Shown here piece by piece: positions 12,020 through 53,885 of a stretch of 64,000 nucleotides of DNA; the first letter of the stretch is position 1; every line of letters begins with the position of its first letter. Made by a program: the position numbers and the translations under genes. This DNA comes from a virus, in IMG/VR virus record IMGVR_UViG_2706795158_000001, positions 39,335 through 103,334 of that record; one strand, given 5' to 3'. A model generated the notes under the pieces. The model searched no databases. It saw only the letters and a list, made by a program, of their open reading frames with translations, and was not told the origin of the DNA.

Positions 12020-13747
12020 ATGGCTTACGAAAACTCTGGTATTACGTTTAACGGACGTAGAATTATCCATCCAGGTGCTTATGATCGCATAGACACTAGT
12101 GCTATGACAGCCTCTACTCCTGGTAGCTTAAACAGACCTATCTTAATAGGTACTGCTGATGCTGGTGAAGCAGGTAAGGTAATGTGGTGGACAGACCCAA
12201 GTAAGGCTAGAGCATACTTTAAGAGTGGTGACCTACCTACTGCGGTTGAACTAGCGTTCTCTCCTCTACCAGAAGGTGGTGGCGGTGCATCTATCGTTGG
12301 TACGTTACTAGTTAACCCAACAGTTGCAGCTACTAAAGATGTAGGTGGAGGTAAGTGGACTGCTAAGGAGTTCGGTGCTATAGGTAACGAAATCCAAGTT
12401 AAGATGGAAGATGGTACTCTTGCAGGTACAAAGAAAGTTTCTGTATACCGCTTTAGTACTAATGACGTTGAATCTTGGGATAACATCGGTGCTATCTTAG
12501 AAGTAAACTATACAGGGTCTAAGGCTTATGCTGAGATTGCTGTAGCTTCTGGTGTTGTGACTACTAAGACTGGTGCTGATTCAGCTACAGCTACTGTAGA
12601 CTTAACTGTTGATGGTAAGCTTCCACAGTACAGCACAGTAGATGCTTTAGTATCTTACATCAATAGCATGTCTGGATACTCTGCTCGTATCATCAATATG
12701 GCTGATGCGAAAATGCCTGTAACTGCTTTAGATACAGTGACAGCAGTAGCTATCAAGAATGCTCCTAAAACGTTACTGTCTGCTAAGATAGGTATTGAGA
12801 CACGTGTAAACGTATCATCCCTATTAGTGAATGTATCTATCACGGGTACTCCAGCAAACTTCCCTTGGACGTACTTAGCAGGAGGACAAAAAGGTACTAC
12901 ACCTGCTTCATGGTCACCTCACTTTAGTACGCTACGTAAGGAGTTCTTCGACTTACTTTGTGTCCTATCCTCTGAGAGTGCTATCCATGCAGAGGCAGCA
13001 GCACACGTGCAAGTAATGGAAACACGTAGACAGAAGCAGTACTTATTCTTCGGTGGTGCAGGGGATGACCCACAAGCTCCAGAGGATAAGACTAAAGCTA
13101 AACAACGTGCATCTGCAATGAACTACCGTAGAGCGGTACTTTGCTACCCAGCAATTTACCATCCAATCGTAGAGAGTGGTAAGAAATTGTTACCAGGATA
13201 TATGACTGCTGCTATGGTATGTGGACGTGTAGCTGGAGTACCAACTTCAGAGCCTATCACGTTCGACTTCTTCAATATATCTGGTTTAGGGGTAGACTTG
13301 GTAGCAGGTGACCCAGATATTGATGAATTAATCGCTTCAGGCGTATGTGTAATGGAACGAGTTCAGAATGGTGGAATTCGCCTAGCACAAGGTGTAACAA
13401 CGTATCTTGGACCAGTACGTACACCTAACGTAGAGATCAGTACAGGACGTACAGCAGATGAAGTTTCTGACCGTGTTACAAACAGATTAGAAGACACATT
13501 TGTAGGCTCTAGCTCTGCAATTGCTACTAACTCTTCTGTAACTACAGAAGCTACTAACGTCTTAGACGAATGTACACGTGAGAAGTTAATTCTTGGATAC
13601 CGTAACATTCGAGTACGATTCGAAGGTACTGCTGTATATGTTGATTATGAAGCTGCTATCACAGAGCCAATCAACTTTATCCTAGTTACATCTCACTTTG
13701 TCCCATCTAGTACGTTTAATAACCTAGTAGAGGGACAACAAATCTAA
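12020..13747 (+). CDS. Tail sheath protein
   Basis: HPGAYDRIDTS N-terminus; C-terminal GVTTY...EISTGRTAD...PINFILVT; followed by the tube gene. Confidence 0.92.
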   Translation: MAYENSGITFNGRRIIHPGAYDRIDTSAMTASTPGSLNRPILIGTADAGEAGKVMWWTDPSKARAYFKSGDLPTAVELAFSPLPEGGGGASIVGTLLVNPTVAATKDVGGGKWTAKEFGAIGNEIQVKMEDGTLAGTKKVSVYRFSTNDVESWDNIGAILEVNYTGSKAYAEIAVASGVVTTKTGADSATATVDLTVDGKLPQYSTVDALVSYINSMSGYSARIINMADAKMPVTALDTVTAVAIKNAPKTLLSAKIGIETRVNVSSLLVNVSITGTPANFPWTYLAGGQKGTTPASWSPHFSTLRKEFFDLLCVLSSESAIHAEAAAHVQVMETRRQKQYLFFGGAGDDPQAPEDKTKAKQRASAMNYRRAVLCYPAIYHPIVESGKKLLPGYMTAAMVCGRVAGVPTSEPITFDFFNISGLGVDLVAGDPDIDELIASGVCVMERVQNGGIRLAQGVTTYLGPVRTPNVEISTGRTADEVSDRVTNRLEDTFVGSSSAIATNSSVTTEATNVLDECTREKLILGYRNIRVRFEGTAVYVDYEAAITEPINFILVTSHFVPSSTFNNLVEGQQI

Positions 13748-13761
13748 GGAGGTGACTACCT

Positions 13762-14175
13762 ATGGGAATGGTAGATAAACAGACGGTACACGCTGGTCAT
13801 ACCATAAACATCCGTATCAGGGGTGAAATCGTTGGTAGGATTCAGGGCTTAGACGGTGAGCGTGATTTCGGTACAGAAGGTGTATACGAAATCGGTTCAA
13901 TGATGCCACAAGAACACGTACACAATAAGTATACTGGTTCTGTAACATGTGAGCGATTCTTCGTACGTAAGAAAGACCTTGCACGTATCGGAATGGCTTC
14001 TGTGGGTGAAGAGGTACTGAAGAAAGATGTTATCACTATCGAGGTAGTAGATAAGTACACTAAAGAGATTGTTCGTTCTTACCACGGATGCTCTATTGGT
14101 AACTATCGTGAGAACTTCCGAGTTAATGCTATCGCAGGTGAAAACGCTAGCTTCCAATACCTATATGCAAGCTAA
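13762..14175 (+). CDS. Tail tube protein
   Basis: KQTVHAGHT...GRIQ...GTEGVYEIGSMMPQEHV closely resembles Twort-like tube proteins. Confidence 0.92.
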   Translation: MGMVDKQTVHAGHTINIRIRGEIVGRIQGLDGERDFGTEGVYEIGSMMPQEHVHNKYTGSVTCERFFVRKKDLARIGMASVGEEVLKKDVITIEVVDKYTKEIVRSYHGCSIGNYRENFRVNAIAGENASFQYLYAS

Positions 14176-14191
14176 TAATACCAACAATAGT

Positions 14192-14233
14192 GGGAGCAGG
14201 AGTATAACTTACATACTCCTGCTCCTATTTTTA
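14192..14233 (+). terminator. Rho-independent terminator after tube gene
   Basis: gggagcaggagtat-aacttac-atactcctgctcct followed by attttt. Confidence 0.85.
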
Positions 14234-14263
14234 TTATGAATTAAAACTCAAGGAGGTATTACT

Positions 14264-14704
14264 ATGTCAGAGAATATTAAAACTGTTACACTTAACACGT
14301 TACAGGACATTAACCAAGGGGATGCACGTACTCATACTTTTAAAGCAGACTTCACAGATGTAGACCCAGAATTCGTAGGTATGTTCACAGTACATCACCC
14401 TAATATGATGGATGAATTAGCTATTGGACGTCTATATGCAAGCTTAAAAGGTGGGTTGGAAGTAGACCAGTTCACAGACAATATTGCTACAGTTGTCTCT
14501 ACACTAGATGTAGTGTTAGATAAGAAACCTGAATGGTTCCACGTTGGTAACTCAAAGGTAGACTATCCTATGTGGGAAGTTATCTACTTAGAGTACAGAA
14601 ACTGGGTGGAATCCTTTCGTAAGCCAGATAAAAAAGATAACAATGAAGGAGATAGCAAAGACAAGCCAAGCGAGGTTCGAGTGGTGGGTACAGACCAAAT
14701 TTAA
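14264..14704 (+). CDS. Tail assembly chaperone (short form)
   Basis: Between tube and tape measure; SD GGAGG; contains in-frame TCC TTT CGT at 14612-14620. Confidence 0.75.
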   Translation: MSENIKTVTLNTLQDINQGDARTHTFKADFTDVDPEFVGMFTVHHPNMMDELAIGRLYASLKGGLEVDQFTDNIATVVSTLDVVLDKKPEWFHVGNSKVDYPMWEVIYLEYRNWVESFRKPDKKDNNEGDSKDKPSEVRVVGTDQI

Positions 14705-14957
14705 TGTTCTGTCTACAGACCCTAGATATAAAGCCTTGACAACCGAGCAATTTGACCTTATGTATCATCACTACCTTCTAGATAACCCAGAGGAAGAGGA
14801 TGTAGTTAAGGCTGCTAATGACCCTGACTATAAGGAAGATGAGCCTGAACACTATGAAGACCCAGACTTCAAACATGCATGGGATAACATGGATGATGAT
14901 GAGGTTGTACAGGATACTACAGGTAAGAAAGAAGAGGACGAATTTGAGGAGGTGTAG
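14619..14957 (+). CDS. Tail assembly chaperone extension, probably reached by +1 frameshift (about 230-aa fusion)
   Basis: The +1 frame is open 14592-14957; the ATG at 14643 has no SD; sequence WWVQTKFNVLSTDPRYKALT. Confidence 0.65.
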   Translation, partial: VSQIKKITMKEIAKTSQARFEWWVQTKFNVLSTDPRYKALTTEQFDLMYHHYLLDNPEEEDVVKAANDPDYKEDEPEHYEDPDFKHAWDNMDDDEVVQDTTGKKEEDEFEEV

Positions 14958-14960
14958 TAG

Positions 14961-17651
14961 ATGGCTAGAAATCGGACAGATGCTGATATTAAGTTTAGGG
15001 CTGATACTACAGATGCCCTCTCTGACATAAAGCAACTGGAAAGCAAGGTAGCCAAGCTAAAGGACTTAGCTAACCAGGGTGAGCACTCTCAGGGAGGGCT
15101 ACTCTCCTACAGACAAGTCTCTATGTACAGAAAAATCCTAGGTGAAACTGAACAACTCTATGATAAGCACTATAAACGCTTGGAACGTATGGAAGCGGAT
15201 TATGGACGTAAGGTAGAGGAAAATCAGAAGAAGATTAAGAAGTATCAGGAACAACTTAGGAATGCTCAAGGGGGCAATAAGTGGGGCGATGTAGCAAGCC
15301 CTAGAGTACAGCAGTTCTATCAGTCTAGGCTAGATCAAGCTACTGCTGATAGAGACAAAATTAAATCTGGTTCTAATGAAGCTGAAATGCAACGCCTACG
15401 TTCAGTTATAGACCAGATGAATCCCTCTATACAACAACGTAATGATAACCGTGACCGTATAGATAGAATGCATGAACGTGACCCTGTAACCGAGCGTATG
15501 CTCTACGGGGTTACCTCTGCTGTACAGTCAGCAGGTATTATTGCTAGTATAGGTCAGATGTTCAATTATGGTAACCGATACGCTGATATACTGAGACCAC
15601 AGGAACTACAGGCTTCTCAAATGGGGCAGAAAATTGGCTACGGTGAAGGTGGCAATGATGAAACCCTCCGTGAGAGAGCAGTAAATGTAGGCTTGAAGAA
15701 TCAGTATAAAACAGGGGAAACTCTACAAACACAGTCCATATTGGCTGCTGGTGGTAGGACTAATCTAGACAAGCTAGATGCAGATACTGAATCAGCACAA
15801 GCATTTGGACGTAATACGGGTACTAACCCTGACCAACTTGCTAATATGGGTAGTATGCTCCAACGTATGGGAGCTATGGATGAGGGGCAAATGAAACGCT
15901 TATCAGACTTGATAGGTGGTGCTGTATCTAAAACCAAGATGAGTGGTCGAGAAGAGGAAATGATGAGAGCAACTACTTCTCTAGCACAATCAGTGAGTAG
16001 AGGGCTACCAGAATTTAAGGATGACCAGTTCAAGAACATGTTATCTGCACAAGTCATGTTAGGTCAGCTATCTCCAGAGCTTAAAGGTGAGCGTGGCTCT
16101 AAGTTACTAGGAACTATGGATGCAGGTTTCAAGGAGGGTAACCATACCTTAGACGTATTAATGCGTAATGGTAACTCTGATTTCTTAGGAGTAGAGGGTA
16201 CTTGGAAAATGAAACTGCAACAAGAAGAGGGTATATCAAACCCTAAAAACATCACTGACCTAGTAAAAGGCTTGAAAGCTACCTATGGTAAGGATGTATT
16301 GAAGACTAGTCAAGGTCAAGCAGTAGCAGGTATGTCCCTATCTCAAGGTCTTGGAGTATCTAAGAAAGAGAGTCAGAAACTTATTGAATCTGGCTTCCTA
16401 GAGAAGATGGAGCAAGGGAAAATGCCTACTTCTAAGGAACTTGAAGATGCAGGTATGAAAGACTTAGCGAAAAAGGCAAAAGCATGGAATAACGCTGAAT
16501 CTAAGAACTGGACAGGGAATGAAGCAGGGTATGAGCGAACTGGTACTGAAACTGGGGGTAATATTTGGTCAGGTATCTCTAGCTATGCTGGGCAGGCTTT
16601 TAACTCTCTTAATCCTTGGGTAGCATTCGGTGGTATGTCTGCTATGGCTCTTGGTGGCTCATACATGATGGGTAAGTATGGTAGAATGGGCTTATCCAGA
16701 GGTTTATCTAACCTTAGACCTAACATAGGTCAACAACGTGGAGCACTACCCCCTAGAGGTGGTAACTTCATGGGTAATGTTAAGAACACTGCTGGTAACC
16801 TTTGGAACTCTACTAAGTCTGGTGCAGGCTCTCTATGGAACTCTGCTAAGAGTGGTGGCTCTAAGGCTTGGAACTGGGGTAAAGGTCTCTTTAAAGGCGG
16901 TGGTGGAGGTACTCCTCCTAGTGGTGGTGCTCCTGCTGGTGGTGGCTTCTGGAATGGAGCAAAGAGCCTAGGAGGAAAGGTACTTGGTCCACTAGCTACT
17001 GTAGGTAGTATGACATGGGCTGCTGACTTAGGGGATGACGCAGGGGACTGGTTATTCGGACACGACAAAGGACAGCTAAAGCCTAAGCCTATGCTAGATC
17101 CATTTGGTAAGGATGAGTATTACAAAGAGGAAAAACGTAACGCCTTTGTACGTGGTTGGAATTGGCTTACTGGTGATGAGGAAGAAGATAAGAAGAAGGA
17201 AGAGGCTAAGAAAAAAGAGGTTAAAAAGAAAGAAGCCGAACCTCTACCTAAAACTGAAAAAGACACTGCCAAGCCAATACCAGAAGCTAAGAAGGATGAG
17301 GGAACCGATAGCACTAAGAAAGAGCTAGAGGTGGACAGTATTAAAGTTAAGGATAAGTCTGTACAGGAGTACCTAACCAAGGAGAAGGACGGAGTATCTA
17401 AGTCTACTCCTGGCTCTAAGTCATCCTCTAAAGATGACGTAGACACTAACATCAAGTTAGTTAAAATAGAGCACACTGTTAGGGTTGAGTGGACAGGCAA
17501 CAACTTATCTCCAGACAATGAATACAAGGTTTCAGGTAGTATCTCTAACTACTTCTCTACTGCAACTGATATCCTCATGGGTAAAGGCGGTAATGGAGGG
17601 GCAACTGCATTTGGAGGTATGAATCTATCCAGAGACCAGAGCCGAGAATAG
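14961..17651 (+). CDS. Tape measure protein
   Basis: Long helical protein after the chaperone; Trp-periodic repeats (LWNSTKSGAGSLWNSAKSG); hydrophobic segment. Confidence 0.8.
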   Translation: MARNRTDADIKFRADTTDALSDIKQLESKVAKLKDLANQGEHSQGGLLSYRQVSMYRKILGETEQLYDKHYKRLERMEADYGRKVEENQKKIKKYQEQLRNAQGGNKWGDVASPRVQQFYQSRLDQATADRDKIKSGSNEAEMQRLRSVIDQMNPSIQQRNDNRDRIDRMHERDPVTERMLYGVTSAVQSAGIIASIGQMFNYGNRYADILRPQELQASQMGQKIGYGEGGNDETLRERAVNVGLKNQYKTGETLQTQSILAAGGRTNLDKLDADTESAQAFGRNTGTNPDQLANMGSMLQRMGAMDEGQMKRLSDLIGGAVSKTKMSGREEEMMRATTSLAQSVSRGLPEFKDDQFKNMLSAQVMLGQLSPELKGERGSKLLGTMDAGFKEGNHTLDVLMRNGNSDFLGVEGTWKMKLQQEEGISNPKNITDLVKGLKATYGKDVLKTSQGQAVAGMSLSQGLGVSKKESQKLIESGFLEKMEQGKMPTSKELEDAGMKDLAKKAKAWNNAESKNWTGNEAGYERTGTETGGNIWSGISSYAGQAFNSLNPWVAFGGMSAMALGGSYMMGKYGRMGLSRGLSNLRPNIGQQRGALPPRGGNFMGNVKNTAGNLWNSTKSGAGSLWNSAKSGGSKAWNWGKGLFKGGGGGTPPSGGAPAGGGFWNGAKSLGGKVLGPLATVGSMTWAADLGDDAGDWLFGHDKGQLKPKPMLDPFGKDEYYKEEKRNAFVRGWNWLTGDEEEDKKKEEAKKKEVKKKEAEPLPKTEKDTAKPIPEAKKDEGTDSTKKELEVDSIKVKDKSVQEYLTKEKDGVSKSTPGSKSSSKDDVDTNIKLVKIEHTVRVEWTGNNLSPDNEYKVSGSISNYFSTATDILMGKGGNGGATAFGGMNLSRDQSRE

Positions 17652-48619: not shown

Positions 48620-49000
48620 ATGTGTACTACATGTGTACGTCAACCTGTCAAAGTCAAACGTAAAGCTATAACATATTTCACAGACCACGGTATAGGGAAC
48701 GGTAAGTGGTTTGCATTCCCTAAACCAGAGGATGAGAGACCTCCTAGACTTACTAGGAAATTACAAAATAATGAGAAACTTATATGGTGTCCCTGGTGTG
48801 CGGAGTACACCATCTACAAGAAAAAGCGTTCAGATACTAACTTCAACTGTACTGGTTGGTGTGGTTGGGGCAACACTGGAGAGTTCTATGTAAACAAGTA
48901 TAACGATTTATGGTTTGATGATGTACCTACAGCAGACCTTAAGAAAGTGGTTATGCCAGCTCCAGCTAAACCTAGAGGTGGTAAGAAACGGAGGGGTTAA
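48620..49000 (+). CDS. Cys-rich putative zinc-binding protein
   Basis: CTTC, CPWC, CTGWC. Confidence 0.7.
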   Translation: MCTTCVRQPVKVKRKAITYFTDHGIGNGKWFAFPKPEDERPPRLTRKLQNNEKLIWCPWCAEYTIYKKKRSDTNFNCTGWCGWGNTGEFYVNKYNDLWFDDVPTADLKKVVMPAPAKPRGGKKRRG

Positions 49001-53288: not shown

Positions 53289-53885
53289 ATGGACAGATTA
53301 ACAAATTTAGAGAAAACGGTGCTAGACTTAGAATCAGCACTAAGACAAACGCAACAGGAGTTTACCTCATTTAAGGACATGATGTTAGGTCAACCAGAAT
53401 TACCATACTTCTCCGATATCCCAGGATATCAACTAAAGTATCACCACGATGGAGATGCAGGTATTGATTTACCTATCTTTGATGAGCGTTTACTTGACGG
53501 TGAATTCAGTACTGAAGGGTTTGTGGACATCCACCCAGGATGTAGCTATACTCTAAAGACTGGTATCCACATGGCTATCCCACAAAGTCATTATGGTATG
53601 CTGGATACACGTTCAGGAACATCTAAGTTGAAAATGACTCTATTGTGTCGCACTATTGATGAGCCATTTCGTGGTAACATCCGTTTAGCTCTACACAACG
53701 TTGGAACTGAAACAGTCCGTGTAGCTAACTATGATGAATTGGCACAAATGGTTATCAAGCGCTACACTAAAGTTGCACCTAAGGGCTTTGCTACATATGG
53801 TGAGTTCCTTGAATATGCAGGTAATACTGCACGTGGTCAGGAAGGCTTTGGTAGTAAAGAGCGTAATTTAGGAGGAGGAAACTAA
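53289..53885 (+). CDS. dut: Trimeric dUTPase
   Basis: DAGIDL, RSG, TIDEPFRG, RGQEGFGS motifs. Confidence 0.9.
   Translation: MDRLTNLEKTVLDLESALRQTQQEFTSFKDMMLGQPELPYFSDIPGYQLKYHHDGDAGIDLPIFDERLLDGEFSTEGFVDIHPGCSYTLKTGIHMAIPQSHYGMLDTRSGTSKLKMTLLCRTIDEPFRGNIRLALHNVGTETVRVANYDELAQMVIKRYTKVAPKGFATYGEFLEYAGNTARGQEGFGSKERNLGGGN

What the first reader, a model, noticed from the sequence alone, without database searches (positions are those of the whole stretch)
14592..14957. Tail chaperone +1 frameshift site TCC_TTT_CGT, the same motif as influenza PA-X
Seen: the second chaperone ORF is in the +1 frame relative to the first, is open from 14592 and has no SD at its ATG. The first ORF contains in-frame TCC TTT CGT at 14612-14620. 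Slippage from UUU to UUC keeps Phe and gives ...VESF/VSQIKKITMKEIAK..., a fusion of about 230 aa. Known: tail chaperones are usually extended by -1 frameshifts, and UCC_UUU_CGU is the +1 shift site of influenza A PA-X. Inference: a +1 recoding signal convergent with a eukaryotic RNA virus.
Basis: partly seen in the sequence, partly recalled or inferred. Interest (0 to 1): 0.75.

Follow-up and report, generated by a model that had tools for sequence, protein, structure and literature searches.

The report
Plus-one frameshift site in tail chaperone
A tail-assembly helper gene of this Bacillus phage very probably makes a second, longer protein when a few ribosomes slip one base forward at UCC-UUU-CGU. 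Every relative examined keeps the core of that site, but the frameshift itself was already annotated, so what is new is where it happens.

Summary
ORF1 (14264-14704, 146 aa) is a tail assembly chaperone lying between the tube and tape-measure genes. A start-less ORF in the +1 frame is open from 14592 to 14957, and TCC TTT CGT lies in frame at 14612-14620. A slip there gives a 230-aa fusion.

The window is a JL/Shanette-like Siminovitchvirus (family Herelleviridae). All 30 related genomes examined, from five subfamilies plus Klumppvirus, keep the +1 arrangement and an in-frame TTT_C. Of these, 28 have TTT_CGN and 2 have TTT_CAA. In many, stop codons bracket the site within a 17-nt overlap.

Among near-invariant ORF1 residues, only this Phe has a fixed codon (TTT 13/13), and the Arg is always CGN. 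The preceding codon is NCC in 25 of 30 genomes, and TCC wherever it encodes Ser. Coding constraint switches from frame 0 to frame +1 exactly at TTT_C.

Best reading: tRNA-Phe slips in the P site from UUU to UUC, as at the influenza PA-X site, but here without a rare A-site codon.

The +1 fusion is already annotated for SPO1, JL, Moonbeam and Adastra, so it is not new. However, the GenBank junctions for JL, SPO1 and Adastra lie downstream at non-conserved places. No experiment exists. This scan has noted similar TTT_CGT sites in the tail chaperone genes of other phages.

The parts
12020..13747 (+). tail sheath gene (context)
   Evidence: phrog_279 tail sheath, E 8e-106; Phage_sheath_1
13762..14175 (+). 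tail tube gene (context)
   Evidence: phrog_985. Annotated as tail tube subunit in phage JL. Homologues carry PF26461 Phi812_tail_tube
14250..14257 (+). Shine-Dalgarno sequence AAGGAGGT of the chaperone gene
   Evidence: read from the sequence
14264..14704 (+). chaperone ORF1 (the 'G' product, 146 aa). Folded core about residues 20-118, disordered tail 122-146
   Evidence: phrog_25000 (E 2e-75) and phrog_1038, both tail assembly chaperone. AlphaFold2 model: last helix 101-116, pLDDT below 50 from residue 122
14612..14620 (+). proposed +1 shift cassette TCC_TTT_CGT (E, P and A sites)
   Evidence: conserved in relatives; codon-level control
14615..14618 (+). slip tetranucleotide TTT_C, where tRNA-Phe re-pairs from UUU to UUC
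   Evidence: The only in-frame TTTC in ORF1. TTT in 13 of 13 non-redundant relatives, while the other invariant Phe is TTT 7 / TTC 6
14619..14957 (+). +1-frame part of the fusion ('T' domain, 112 aa plus stop). The GT product is join(14264..14617, 14619..14957), 230 aa
   Evidence: Translation. phrog_25000 positions 122-230. +1-frame codon-position entropy pattern from the first codon after TTTC. Alignment A3
14630..14636 (+). A6G run (GAT AAA AAA GAT), an alternative +1-capable site that is not conserved
   Evidence: Broken in CP-51, S4-1, P0002 and P0003. Absent from YungSlug, LysYB1, P0004 and all phages with a 17-nt overlap
14643..14645 (+). ATG of the +1 ORF. No Shine-Dalgarno sequence, and the ATG is not conserved
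   Evidence: Upstream sequence. Homologues have Leu, Ile or Gln codons at this position
14961..17651 (+). tape measure / tail lysin gene, with Shine-Dalgarno sequence GAGGAGGTG at 14946-14954
   Evidence: phrog_13572

Best explanation
The locus is the G/GT tail-assembly-chaperone pair of a Siminovitchvirus-like Bacillus cereus-group myophage. Most ribosomes translate ORF1 to its stop and make the 146-aa G protein. A minority slip while tRNA-Phe holds UUU (14615-14617) in the P site. Its GAA anticodon re-pairs one base forward on UUC (14616-14618), and GUA is read next in place of CGU. Translation then continues in the +1 frame to 14957 and gives a 230-aa GT protein (...NWVESF|VSQIKKITMKEIAKT...EFEEV). 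By analogy with lambda gpG/gpGT, both proteins bind the tape measure protein through the shared G domain, and the T domain recruits the tube protein. Shown here: the ORF geometry, the motif, its conservation at nucleotide level, and the switch of coding constraint at the site. Inferred: the slip itself, its direction (+1 rather than -2), its low efficiency, and the roles of G and GT.
For: (1) Synteny and family. The gene order is sheath, tube, ORF1, +1 ORF, tape measure. ORF1 and the +1 ORF match the two halves of the 230-position profile phrog_25000, 'tail assembly chaperone'.
(2) No independent start. The ATG at 14643 has no Shine-Dalgarno sequence, while both neighbouring genes have strong ones. 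The ATG is not conserved. In A511 the first ATG would remove 28 conserved residues.
(3) Conservation. All 30 genomes examined have the second ORF in the +1 frame and an in-frame TTT_C (28 TTT_CGN, 2 TTT_CAA). They come from Spounavirinae, Bastillevirinae, Twortvirinae, Brockvirinae, Jasinkavirinae and Klumppvirus.
(4) Bracketing. In A511, Brochothrix A9, Staphylococcus 812, a Silviavirus, a Twort-like phage, two Enterococcus phages and Juglone, the frames overlap by only 17 nt, i.e. NNN NNN TTT CNN NNN stop. In P0004, P0005, P0006, P0009 and EalM-132 the +1 frame opens two codons before TTT.
(5) Codon-level selection. Of 19 near-invariant degenerate residues in 13 non-redundant ORF1s, only this Phe has zero codon entropy (TTT 13/13; the other invariant Phe is TTT 7 / TTC 6). 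The Arg is CGN 13/13, whereas another conserved Arg is AGA 7 / CGN 5.
(6) E-site codon. The preceding codon is TCC in all 19 genomes where it encodes Ser, and NCC in 25 of 30. TCC is only 9-10% of Ser codons.
(7) Frame switch. Mean entropy by codon position follows a frame-0 pattern in the 15 nt before TTT (1.09/0.50/1.17) and a +1-frame pattern in the 27 nt after TTTC (1.26/0.78/1.41). The spacing from Phe to the [KQRE]EIA motif is a constant 9 residues in all 16 Spounavirinae-like sequences.
(8) Domain boundary. The AlphaFold2 model of ORF1 ends its last helix at residue 116 and is disordered from 122.
(9) Precedent. UUU_Y is described as especially prone to +1 shifting in bacteria (PMC5009743). 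[quoted passage not shown]
(10) Other annotations. Depositors placed the junction at this TTT in Moonbeam (slippage at 48971) and in Troll and Chotacabras (...NTF/ADKV).
(11) Avoidance elsewhere. In-frame TTT_C is depleted in the window's genes (20 observed, 46.5 expected). The two other in-frame TTT_CGT sites meet a +1-frame stop within 4-5 codons.
Against: There is no experimental evidence of any kind: no junction peptide, reporter assay or ribosome profiling. CGT is a common codon here (14 per 1000; 33% of Arg codons), so no slow A-site codon explains a pause. No RNA structure lies 3' of the site (z = 0.11), and no conserved Shine-Dalgarno-like element lies upstream. Efficiency may therefore be low, and what stimulates the slip is unknown. 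Phe-Arg is also an invariant protein motif, so part of the conservation is at the amino-acid level. In this phage the overlap is 113 nt and includes an A6G run that could also shift +1. GenBank depositors placed the JL, SPO1 and Adastra junctions elsewhere. The TTT_C depletion is confounded by a general NNT_C bias and by GATC/GGCC avoidance.
Confidence: 0.78

Rival explanations
1. The +1 shift in this phage occurs downstream on the lysine run GAT AAA AAA GAT (14630-14636). tRNA-Lys re-pairs from AAA to AAA or AAG, giving ...SFRKPDKK|ITMKEIAK. This could act alone or together with TTT_C.
For: AAA_A and AAA_G allow full re-pairing, and the run is kept in JL and in a relative 92% identical. Depositors chose AAA_G sites for SPO1 (...GEAK/EIAKT) and Adastra (...ERGK/IQEIAKT).
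Against: The run is broken in CP-51, P0002, P0003 and S4-1. There is no AAA_R between the shift window and the conserved KEIAK motif in YungSlug, LysYB1 or P0004, and none is possible in the phages with a 17-nt overlap. The positions of AAA_R sites differ between phages. The nine codons between TTT_C and this region evolve with a +1-frame pattern and constant length.
Confidence: 0.12
2. The shift at the same place is -2 rather than +1, giving ...ESFFVSQ... with one extra Phe, as annotated for phages Phrodo and Juglone.
For: The 348-aa GenBank products read ...NTFFADKV. -2 and +1 reach the same frame. Phage Mu gpGT uses -2 (PMC3498833).
Against: A -2 move would put tRNA-Phe on CCU here, and on CAU, CGU or GAU in EalM-132, A511 and A9. 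None of these pairs with the GAA anticodon, whereas +1 gives a perfect UUC in every genome.
Confidence: 0.05
3. The second ORF is translated on its own from the ATG at 14643, or from an internal start, as a separate 104-aa protein, with no recoding.
For: Gene callers and many GenBank records list it as a separate gene.
Against: There is no Shine-Dalgarno sequence. The ATG is not conserved. The +1-frame sequence upstream of it is conserved and has a coding pattern. In the 17-nt-overlap phages the first ATG lies inside the conserved T domain. The +1 phase is invariant across 30 genomes.
Confidence: 0.03
4. The junction is where GenBank places it for JL and the Shanette-like record (...DKKDNN|KEIAKT, a shift at AAT_G, 14642-14645).
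For: The deposited 230-aa products P0015 and P0017 have this junction.
Against: tRNA-Asn on AAU cannot re-pair on AUG. The position is not conserved as a slippery site. The junction looks copied by homology from the SPO1 record.
Confidence: 0.02

Closest known systems
Influenza A virus PA-X +1 frameshift site UCC_UUU_CGU (Jagger 2012; Firth 2012, PMC3498833)
   Same: The 9-nt cassette is identical. The proposed mechanism is the same: P-site tRNA-Phe re-pairs from UUU to UUC. Neither has a known 3' RNA stimulator. The E-site UCC is conserved here and is stimulatory in PA-X. Efficiency is low in PA-X and presumably low here too.
   Different: This is a bacterial ribosome and a dsDNA phage. CGU is a common codon here, whereas it is rare in birds and mammals. 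In relatives the A site is any CGN, or CAA. The product is a structural assembly chaperone, not a host-shutoff nuclease. The site has not been measured here.
Annotated +1 chaperone fusions of other Herelleviridae: SPO1 gp10.2/gp11.1, JL gp102/gp103, Moonbeam, Adastra, Troll
   Same: These are the homologous genes, with the same +1 phase and the same gene order. Moonbeam, Troll and Chotacabras place the junction at this TTT_C.
   Different: The SPO1, Adastra and JL/Shanette-like records put the junction 9-15 codons downstream, at AAA_G or AAT_G, which are not conserved positions. Phrodo and Juglone annotate a -2 product. Many records (A511, 812, CP-51, SP-10) annotate no fusion at all.
Lambda gpG/gpGT and the conserved tail-assembly-chaperone frameshift (Levin 1993; Xu, Hendrix and Duda 2004)
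   Same: Two overlapping ORFs lie between the major tail gene and the tape-measure gene. A short, abundant product and a rare C-terminally extended fusion share the N-terminal domain.
   Different: Lambda shifts -1 on a tandem slippery heptamer (G_GGA_AAG). Here the shift is +1 on a single P-site tetranucleotide. Structural similarity is only weak (HK97 chaperone 2ob9, Z 4.4).
Bacterial UUU_Y +1-prone sites (E. coli; Yersinia YopN-TyeA fusion), as reviewed in PMC5009743
   Same: [quoted passage not shown]
   Different: Those cases are mostly error-level or single-species. Here the site is fixed across a whole phage family and feeds a 112-codon functional ORF.
+1 shifts at CCC_UGA in Listeria phages PSA, A118 and A500 (tsh), and the +1 shift in Bacillus phage SPP1
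   Same: These are programmed +1 shifts in tail genes of phages that infect Firmicutes.
   Different: The Listeria phage shifts use tRNA-Pro on CCC with a stop codon (or a pseudoknot) as the pausing element, and they extend the tube or capsid protein rather than the chaperone.

Membership tests
Tail assembly chaperone G/GT pair (lambda gpG/gpGT type) | Lies between the tail tube (major tail) gene and the tape measure gene | tested here: met
   Gene order is sheath 12020, tube 13762, ORF1 14264, +1 ORF, tape measure 14961
Tail assembly chaperone G/GT pair (lambda gpG/gpGT type) | [quoted passage not shown] | tested here: met
   113-nt overlap, +1 phase, no Shine-Dalgarno sequence at 14643
Tail assembly chaperone G/GT pair (lambda gpG/gpGT type) | Sequence membership in a chaperone family | tested here: met
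   phrog_25000 E 2e-75 for ORF1 and 6e-59 for the +1 ORF; phrog_1038 E 4e-32. No Pfam match
Tail assembly chaperone G/GT pair (lambda gpG/gpGT type) | -1 shift on an X_XXY_YYZ heptamer (the commonest form) | tested here: not met
   The second ORF is in the +1 frame in all 30 genomes. The -1 frame closes within 27 codons
Tail assembly chaperone G/GT pair (lambda gpG/gpGT type) | G-domain fold like that of solved chaperones | tested here: inconclusive
   HK97 chaperone 2ob9 is the top Foldseek hit but at E 0.64. VIA-align gives Z 4.4 with 82 residues aligned at rmsd 4.1
Tail assembly chaperone G/GT pair (lambda gpG/gpGT type) | Both products made in a set ratio and needed for tail assembly | not testable with these tools
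   Needs protein analysis and phage genetics
UUU_C-type +1 P-site slippage sites (PA-X UCC_UUU_CGU; bacterial UUU_Y) | In-frame UUU followed by C, so that tRNA-Phe re-pairs on UUC | tested here: met
   TTT_C at 14615-14618. It is the only in-frame TTTC in ORF1
UUU_C-type +1 P-site slippage sites (PA-X UCC_UUU_CGU; bacterial UUU_Y) | A long +1-frame ORF that opens at or shortly before the site | tested here: met
   112 codons follow the slip. In relatives the +1 frame opens two codons before TTT
UUU_C-type +1 P-site slippage sites (PA-X UCC_UUU_CGU; bacterial UUU_Y) | Motif conserved at synonymous positions among homologues | tested here: met
   TTT 13/13 and CGN 13/13, against mixed codons at 17 other near-invariant residues. 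TTT_C in 30 of 30 genomes
UUU_C-type +1 P-site slippage sites (PA-X UCC_UUU_CGU; bacterial UUU_Y) | UCC in the E site (stimulatory in PA-X) | tested here: met
   TCC here. TCC in 19 of 19 genomes with Ser, and NCC in 25 of 30, against a background of TCC at 9-10% of Ser codons
UUU_C-type +1 P-site slippage sites (PA-X UCC_UUU_CGU; bacterial UUU_Y) | Slowly decoded (rare) A-site codon | tested here: not met
   CGT is 14.0 per 1000 codons and 33% of Arg codons in the window's 54 ORFs
UUU_C-type +1 P-site slippage sites (PA-X UCC_UUU_CGU; bacterial UUU_Y) | Measured frameshifting or a sequenced junction peptide | not testable with these tools
   No proteomic or reporter data found

The most novel reading that the evidence does not exclude
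NCC_UUU_CGN is a self-sufficient minimal +1 frameshift cassette that works on bacterial ribosomes as it does on eukaryotic ones. The E-site NCC codon would be a selected stimulator, and no hungry codon, Shine-Dalgarno-like element or RNA structure would be needed. Herelleviridae and influenza A would then have converged on the same 9 nucleotides because of a universal property of the ribosome. If so, the GenBank junctions of SPO1, JL, Shanette and Adastra are misplaced, and hundreds of records for Staphylococcus, Listeria and Enterococcus myophages lack the fusion protein.
Probability: 0.35. Interest if true: 0.7.

Novelty: new member of a known kind. Interest (0 to 1): 0.5.

Why it matters
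Three points matter.

First, annotation. The comparative data place the chaperone junction at one conserved tetranucleotide for the whole family Herelleviridae. That family includes the therapy-relevant Staphylococcus Kayviruses, the Listeria P100/A511 group and the Enterococcus phages. Most of those records either omit the fusion, label the T-domain ORF 'RNA polymerase beta subunit', or place the junction elsewhere.

Second, mechanism. This is a natural, deeply conserved bacterial instance of the UCC_UUU_CGN cassette, which is otherwise known from influenza PA-X and some other eukaryotic viruses. The conserved E-site NCC and the lack of a rare A-site codon make it a clean system for asking what stimulates +1 slippage on UUU_C, and for testing this in Bacillus subtilis with SPO1.

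Third, prediction tools. Current predictors have no general motif for +1 shifts (PMC10885494), so a family-wide example helps to define one.

Tried and rejected
- 3' RNA stimulator: folding 14619-14710 gives -10.8 kcal/mol, z = 0.11 against shuffles. Rejected.
- Upstream Shine-Dalgarno-like stimulator of the prfB type: GGGTGGA in the window is weak, and nothing similar is conserved in relatives. Rejected.
- Transcriptional slippage: a run of three T is too short. Rejected on established knowledge.
- Phage-encoded tRNA that might alter decoding: no tRNA gene in the window.
- Pseudogene or sequencing error: rejected, because the same phase recurs in 30 independent genomes.
- Hungry A-site codon: rejected.
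- The search for related loci with the alignment failed for lack of a conserved block. With the single protein it returned only close relatives.
- The search for homologous proteins returned only unfused gene calls. The deposited fusions were reached through the listing of cluster members instead.
- The SPO1 genome paper (Stewart 2009) and Xu et al. 2004 are not held in the library. I therefore could not read what site, if any, they proposed. The SPO1 junction was inferred from the deposited protein.
- The Staphylococcus phage MR003 region fetched by coordinates missed the chaperone. Phage 812 and a Silviavirus were used instead.
- Foldseek against the PDB gave no significant match.
- Lactobacillus Herelleviridae were not examined.
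- Literature searches found no paper describing the conserved TTT_C or UCC_UUU_CGN site in these phages. The library is incomplete, so this does not prove absence.

Full report
**What is there.** The window is 98.6% identical over this region to Bacillus phage JL (Siminovitchvirus, Spounavirinae, Herelleviridae). Its ORF1 protein is identical to one from a 138,877-bp NCBI record (P0014).

The gene order is tail sheath (12020-13747), tail tube (13762-14175), ORF1 (14264-14704, 146 aa), a +1-frame ORF open from 14592 to 14957, and the tape measure / tail lysin gene (14961-17651). ORF1 and the +1 ORF match the N- and C-terminal halves of one 230-position PHROG profile, phrog_25000 'tail assembly chaperone' (E 2e-75 and 6e-59). 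ORF1 also matches phrog_1038. Pfam finds nothing.

The second ORF is +1 relative to the first, and it opens after a TAG at 14589-14591. TCC TTT CGT is in frame at 14612-14620. Reading TTTC as one step yields a 230-aa protein...NWVESF|VSQIKKITMKEIAKT.... The ATG at 14643 follows GCCAGATAAAAAAGATAACA, whereas ORF1 and the tape-measure gene follow AAGGAGGT and GAGGAGGTG. The 9-mer occurs once in the window against 0.21 expected, so a single occurrence proves nothing by itself.

**Comparative evidence.** I examined the homologous locus in 30 genomes.
- The Spounavirinae-like set has 18 members: the window, JL, CP-51, S4-1, an IMG/VR relative, seven metagenomic relatives at 42-85% identity, Adastra, SPO1, Exiguobacterium phage EalM-132, YungSlug, SP-10 and Lysinibacillus phage LysYB1.
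- The other 12 are Listeria A511, Brochothrix A9, the Bastillevirinae Moonbeam, Spock, B4, f2b1 and Juglone, Staphylococcus phage 812, a Silviavirus, a Twort-like phage, and Enterococcus phages PEf771 and MDA2.

In every one the second ORF is in the +1 frame and ORF1 has an in-frame TTT followed by C. Twenty-eight have TTT_CGN; Moonbeam and the Twort-like phage have TTT_CAA.

Stop codons bracket the site tightly in many lineages. In A511, A9, 812, the Silviavirus, the Twort-like phage, both Enterococcus phages and Juglone, the frames overlap by only 17 nt. An example is AAC TCC TTT CGT TAC TAA, with a +1-frame stop two codons before TTT. In EalM-132, P0004, P0005, P0006 and P0009 the +1 frame likewise opens two codons before TTT. 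Across the family, the only place a shift can always occur is NNN_TTT_CNN.

**Is this protein conservation or a nucleotide signal?** Phe-Arg is invariant in the protein, so I compared codons. Among 13 non-redundant Spounavirinae-like ORF1s there are 19 near-invariant residues with degenerate codons. Eighteen use mixed synonymous codons (entropy 0.65-1.95 bits). Only this Phe is fixed, at TTT 13/13, while the other invariant Phe is TTT 7 / TTC 6. The Arg is CGN 13/13 with a free third base (CGT 9, CGC 3, CGA 1), whereas another conserved Arg is AGA 7 / CGN 5. That is what a requirement for TTT_C predicts.

The preceding codon is TCC in all 19 genomes where it encodes Ser (about 13 distinct lineages), and NCC in 25 of 30. 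TCC is only 9% of Ser codons in the window and 10% in the pooled relatives. The E-site position therefore also appears to be selected at the nucleotide level, as reported for PA-X, where changing UCC lowers frameshifting by 40-70% (PMC5009743; PMC3498833).

**Where does translation change frame?** In the 13 non-redundant sequences, the 15 nt before TTT show the frame-0 pattern of variability (positions 1/2/3: 1.09/0.50/1.17 bits). The 27 nt after TTTC show the +1-frame pattern (1.26/0.78/1.41). Read in frame 0, that second stretch would have its third position the most conserved, which is not a coding pattern.

In the +1 frame, all 16 sequences have exactly nine residues between the Phe and a conserved [KQRE]-E-I-A motif, with hydrophobic residues at fixed positions. 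The frame-0 tails, by contrast, vary in length and end at different places. The conserved frame-0 'GDSK' is the shadow of +1-frame 'KEIAK'. An AlphaFold2 model of ORF1 (12-sequence alignment, mean pLDDT 69) has a folded core from about residue 20 to 118, a last helix at 101-116 and pLDDT below 50 from residue 122. The slip thus sits at the domain boundary.

**Mechanism.** The simplest reading is P-site slippage. tRNA-Phe (anticodon GAA) reads UUU by G:U wobble and re-pairs on UUC with three Watson-Crick pairs. GUA, the commonest Val codon here at 30.5 per 1000, is then read instead of CGU. This is the mechanism shown for PA-X (PMC3498833). It also fits the statement that UUU_Y is especially prone to +1 shifting in bacteria (PMC5009743).

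One feature of the PA-X account does not carry over. CGT is 14 per 1000 codons and 33% of Arg codons in this phage, so the A site is not 'hungry'. I found no 3' structure (z = 0.11), no conserved Shine-Dalgarno-like element upstream, and no tRNA gene in the window. Efficiency is therefore probably low, which suits a G:GT pair; lambda's ratio is about 30:1 (PMC5009743).

In-frame TTT_C is depleted in the window's 54 ORFs (20 observed, 46.5 expected; odds ratio 0.28 against TTC_C, p = 2e-7), and TTT_T is rarer still (11, against 114 for TTC_T). This is consistent with avoidance of a shift-prone sequence. It is confounded, however, by a general NNT_C bias and by strong GATC and GGCC avoidance. 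The two other in-frame TTT_CGT sites (6469, 53667) meet +1-frame stops after 4-5 codons.

**Rivals.**
- *The A6G run at 14630-14636.* It could also shift +1, and I cannot exclude it as a minor site in this phage. It is broken in CP-51, S4-1, P0002 and P0003. No equivalent exists in YungSlug, LysYB1, P0004 or the short-overlap phages.
- *A -2 shift.* This would require tRNA-Phe to pair with CCU, CAU, CGU or GAU in different phages, which it cannot do.
- *Independent initiation.* This lacks a Shine-Dalgarno sequence and a conserved start codon. In A511 it would remove 28 conserved residues.

**What was already known.** The +1 fusion is not new. SPO1 gp11.1 is annotated as a +1 slippage product of 10.2/11.1. 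JL gp103 is a joined CDS. The Moonbeam announcement calls it 'an unusual +1 frameshift' (PMC4299906).

The deposited junctions disagree with one another:
- Moonbeam, Troll and Chotacabras are at TTT_C.
- Phrodo and Juglone are annotated as a -2 product (TFFADK).
- SPO1 is at ...GEAK/EIAKT and Adastra at ...ERGK/IQEIAKT, both AAA_G sites.
- JL and the Shanette-like record are at ...DNN/KEIAKT, a non-slippery AAT_G.

Many records annotate no fusion: A511, 812, CP-51, SP-10, and the recent CKA15 multi-omics paper, which treats the downstream ORF as a separate hypothetical gene. In the papers I could search I found no description of the conserved site or of its identity with the PA-X cassette. The 2016 recoding review does not mention SPO1. 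The SPO1 genome paper and Xu et al. 2004 were not available to me.

Earlier notes of this scan report similar TTT(_TTT)_CGT +1 sites in chaperone genes of unrelated phages. I did not check those notes.

**Verdict.** This is a known recoding event (the G/GT chaperone fusion, +1 in SPO1-like phages) using a known type of shift site (UUU_C). What this analysis adds is that the site can be pinned to NCC_UUU_CGN across the whole family, that it matches the PA-X cassette down to the E-site codon, and that several database junctions are probably misplaced. No experiment yet supports any of this.

Noticed in passing
window 1-64000: Strong avoidance of restriction sites. GATC occurs 21 times against 186 expected, and GGCC 0 times against 97 expected. 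In coding sequence GAT_C occurs 13 times against 175 for GAC_C, and GGC_C never occurs (0 of 181).
   Followed up: partly
L020 1049-1642 (A511), L034 1331-1867 (phage 812), L037 1385-1843, L039 1355-1930; window 14592-14954: In several RefSeq/GenBank records the T-domain ORF of the chaperone is labelled 'RNA polymerase beta subunit' or 'RNA polymerase'. The window's +1 ORF also hits phrog_1316, which carries that name (E 1e-6). Given position and homology, this looks like a propagated mis-annotation of an acidic tail-chaperone domain.
   Followed up: partly
window 14940-14954; alignment A3: The T domain ends in an invariant acidic motif, E-[FW]-E-E-V, in all seven aligned relatives. Related acidic ends (WEEVDD, DDYFEI, DDFDAL) occur in other subfamilies. 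It may be the contact with the tube protein.
   Followed up: no
window 14189-14229: A 17-bp terminator-like hairpin followed by a T run lies between the tube gene and the chaperone gene and overlaps a promoter-like site (14208-14237). The same layout is annotated in Adastra and Spock. It could set the chaperone genes at a lower transcript level than the tube gene.
   Followed up: no
window 6469-6477 and 53667-53675: There are two further in-frame TTT_CGT sites (ACG TTT CGT and CCA TTT CGT) in other genes. Their +1 frames stop after 4-5 codons, so a slip there would only give truncated products.
   Followed up: yes
window, all 54 predicted ORFs: In-frame TTT is rarely followed by a pyrimidine (TTT_C 20, TTT_T 11, out of 304 TTT codons), while TTC often is (190 of 378). 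This fits avoidance of shift-prone UUU_Y, but it could be ordinary codon-context bias.
   Followed up: partly
P0015, P0017, P0023, P0034, P0043, P0047 (deposited fusion proteins): GenBank junctions for this homologous frameshift fall at five different places or styles among relatives, so the deposited fusion sequences are mutually inconsistent.
   Followed up: yes
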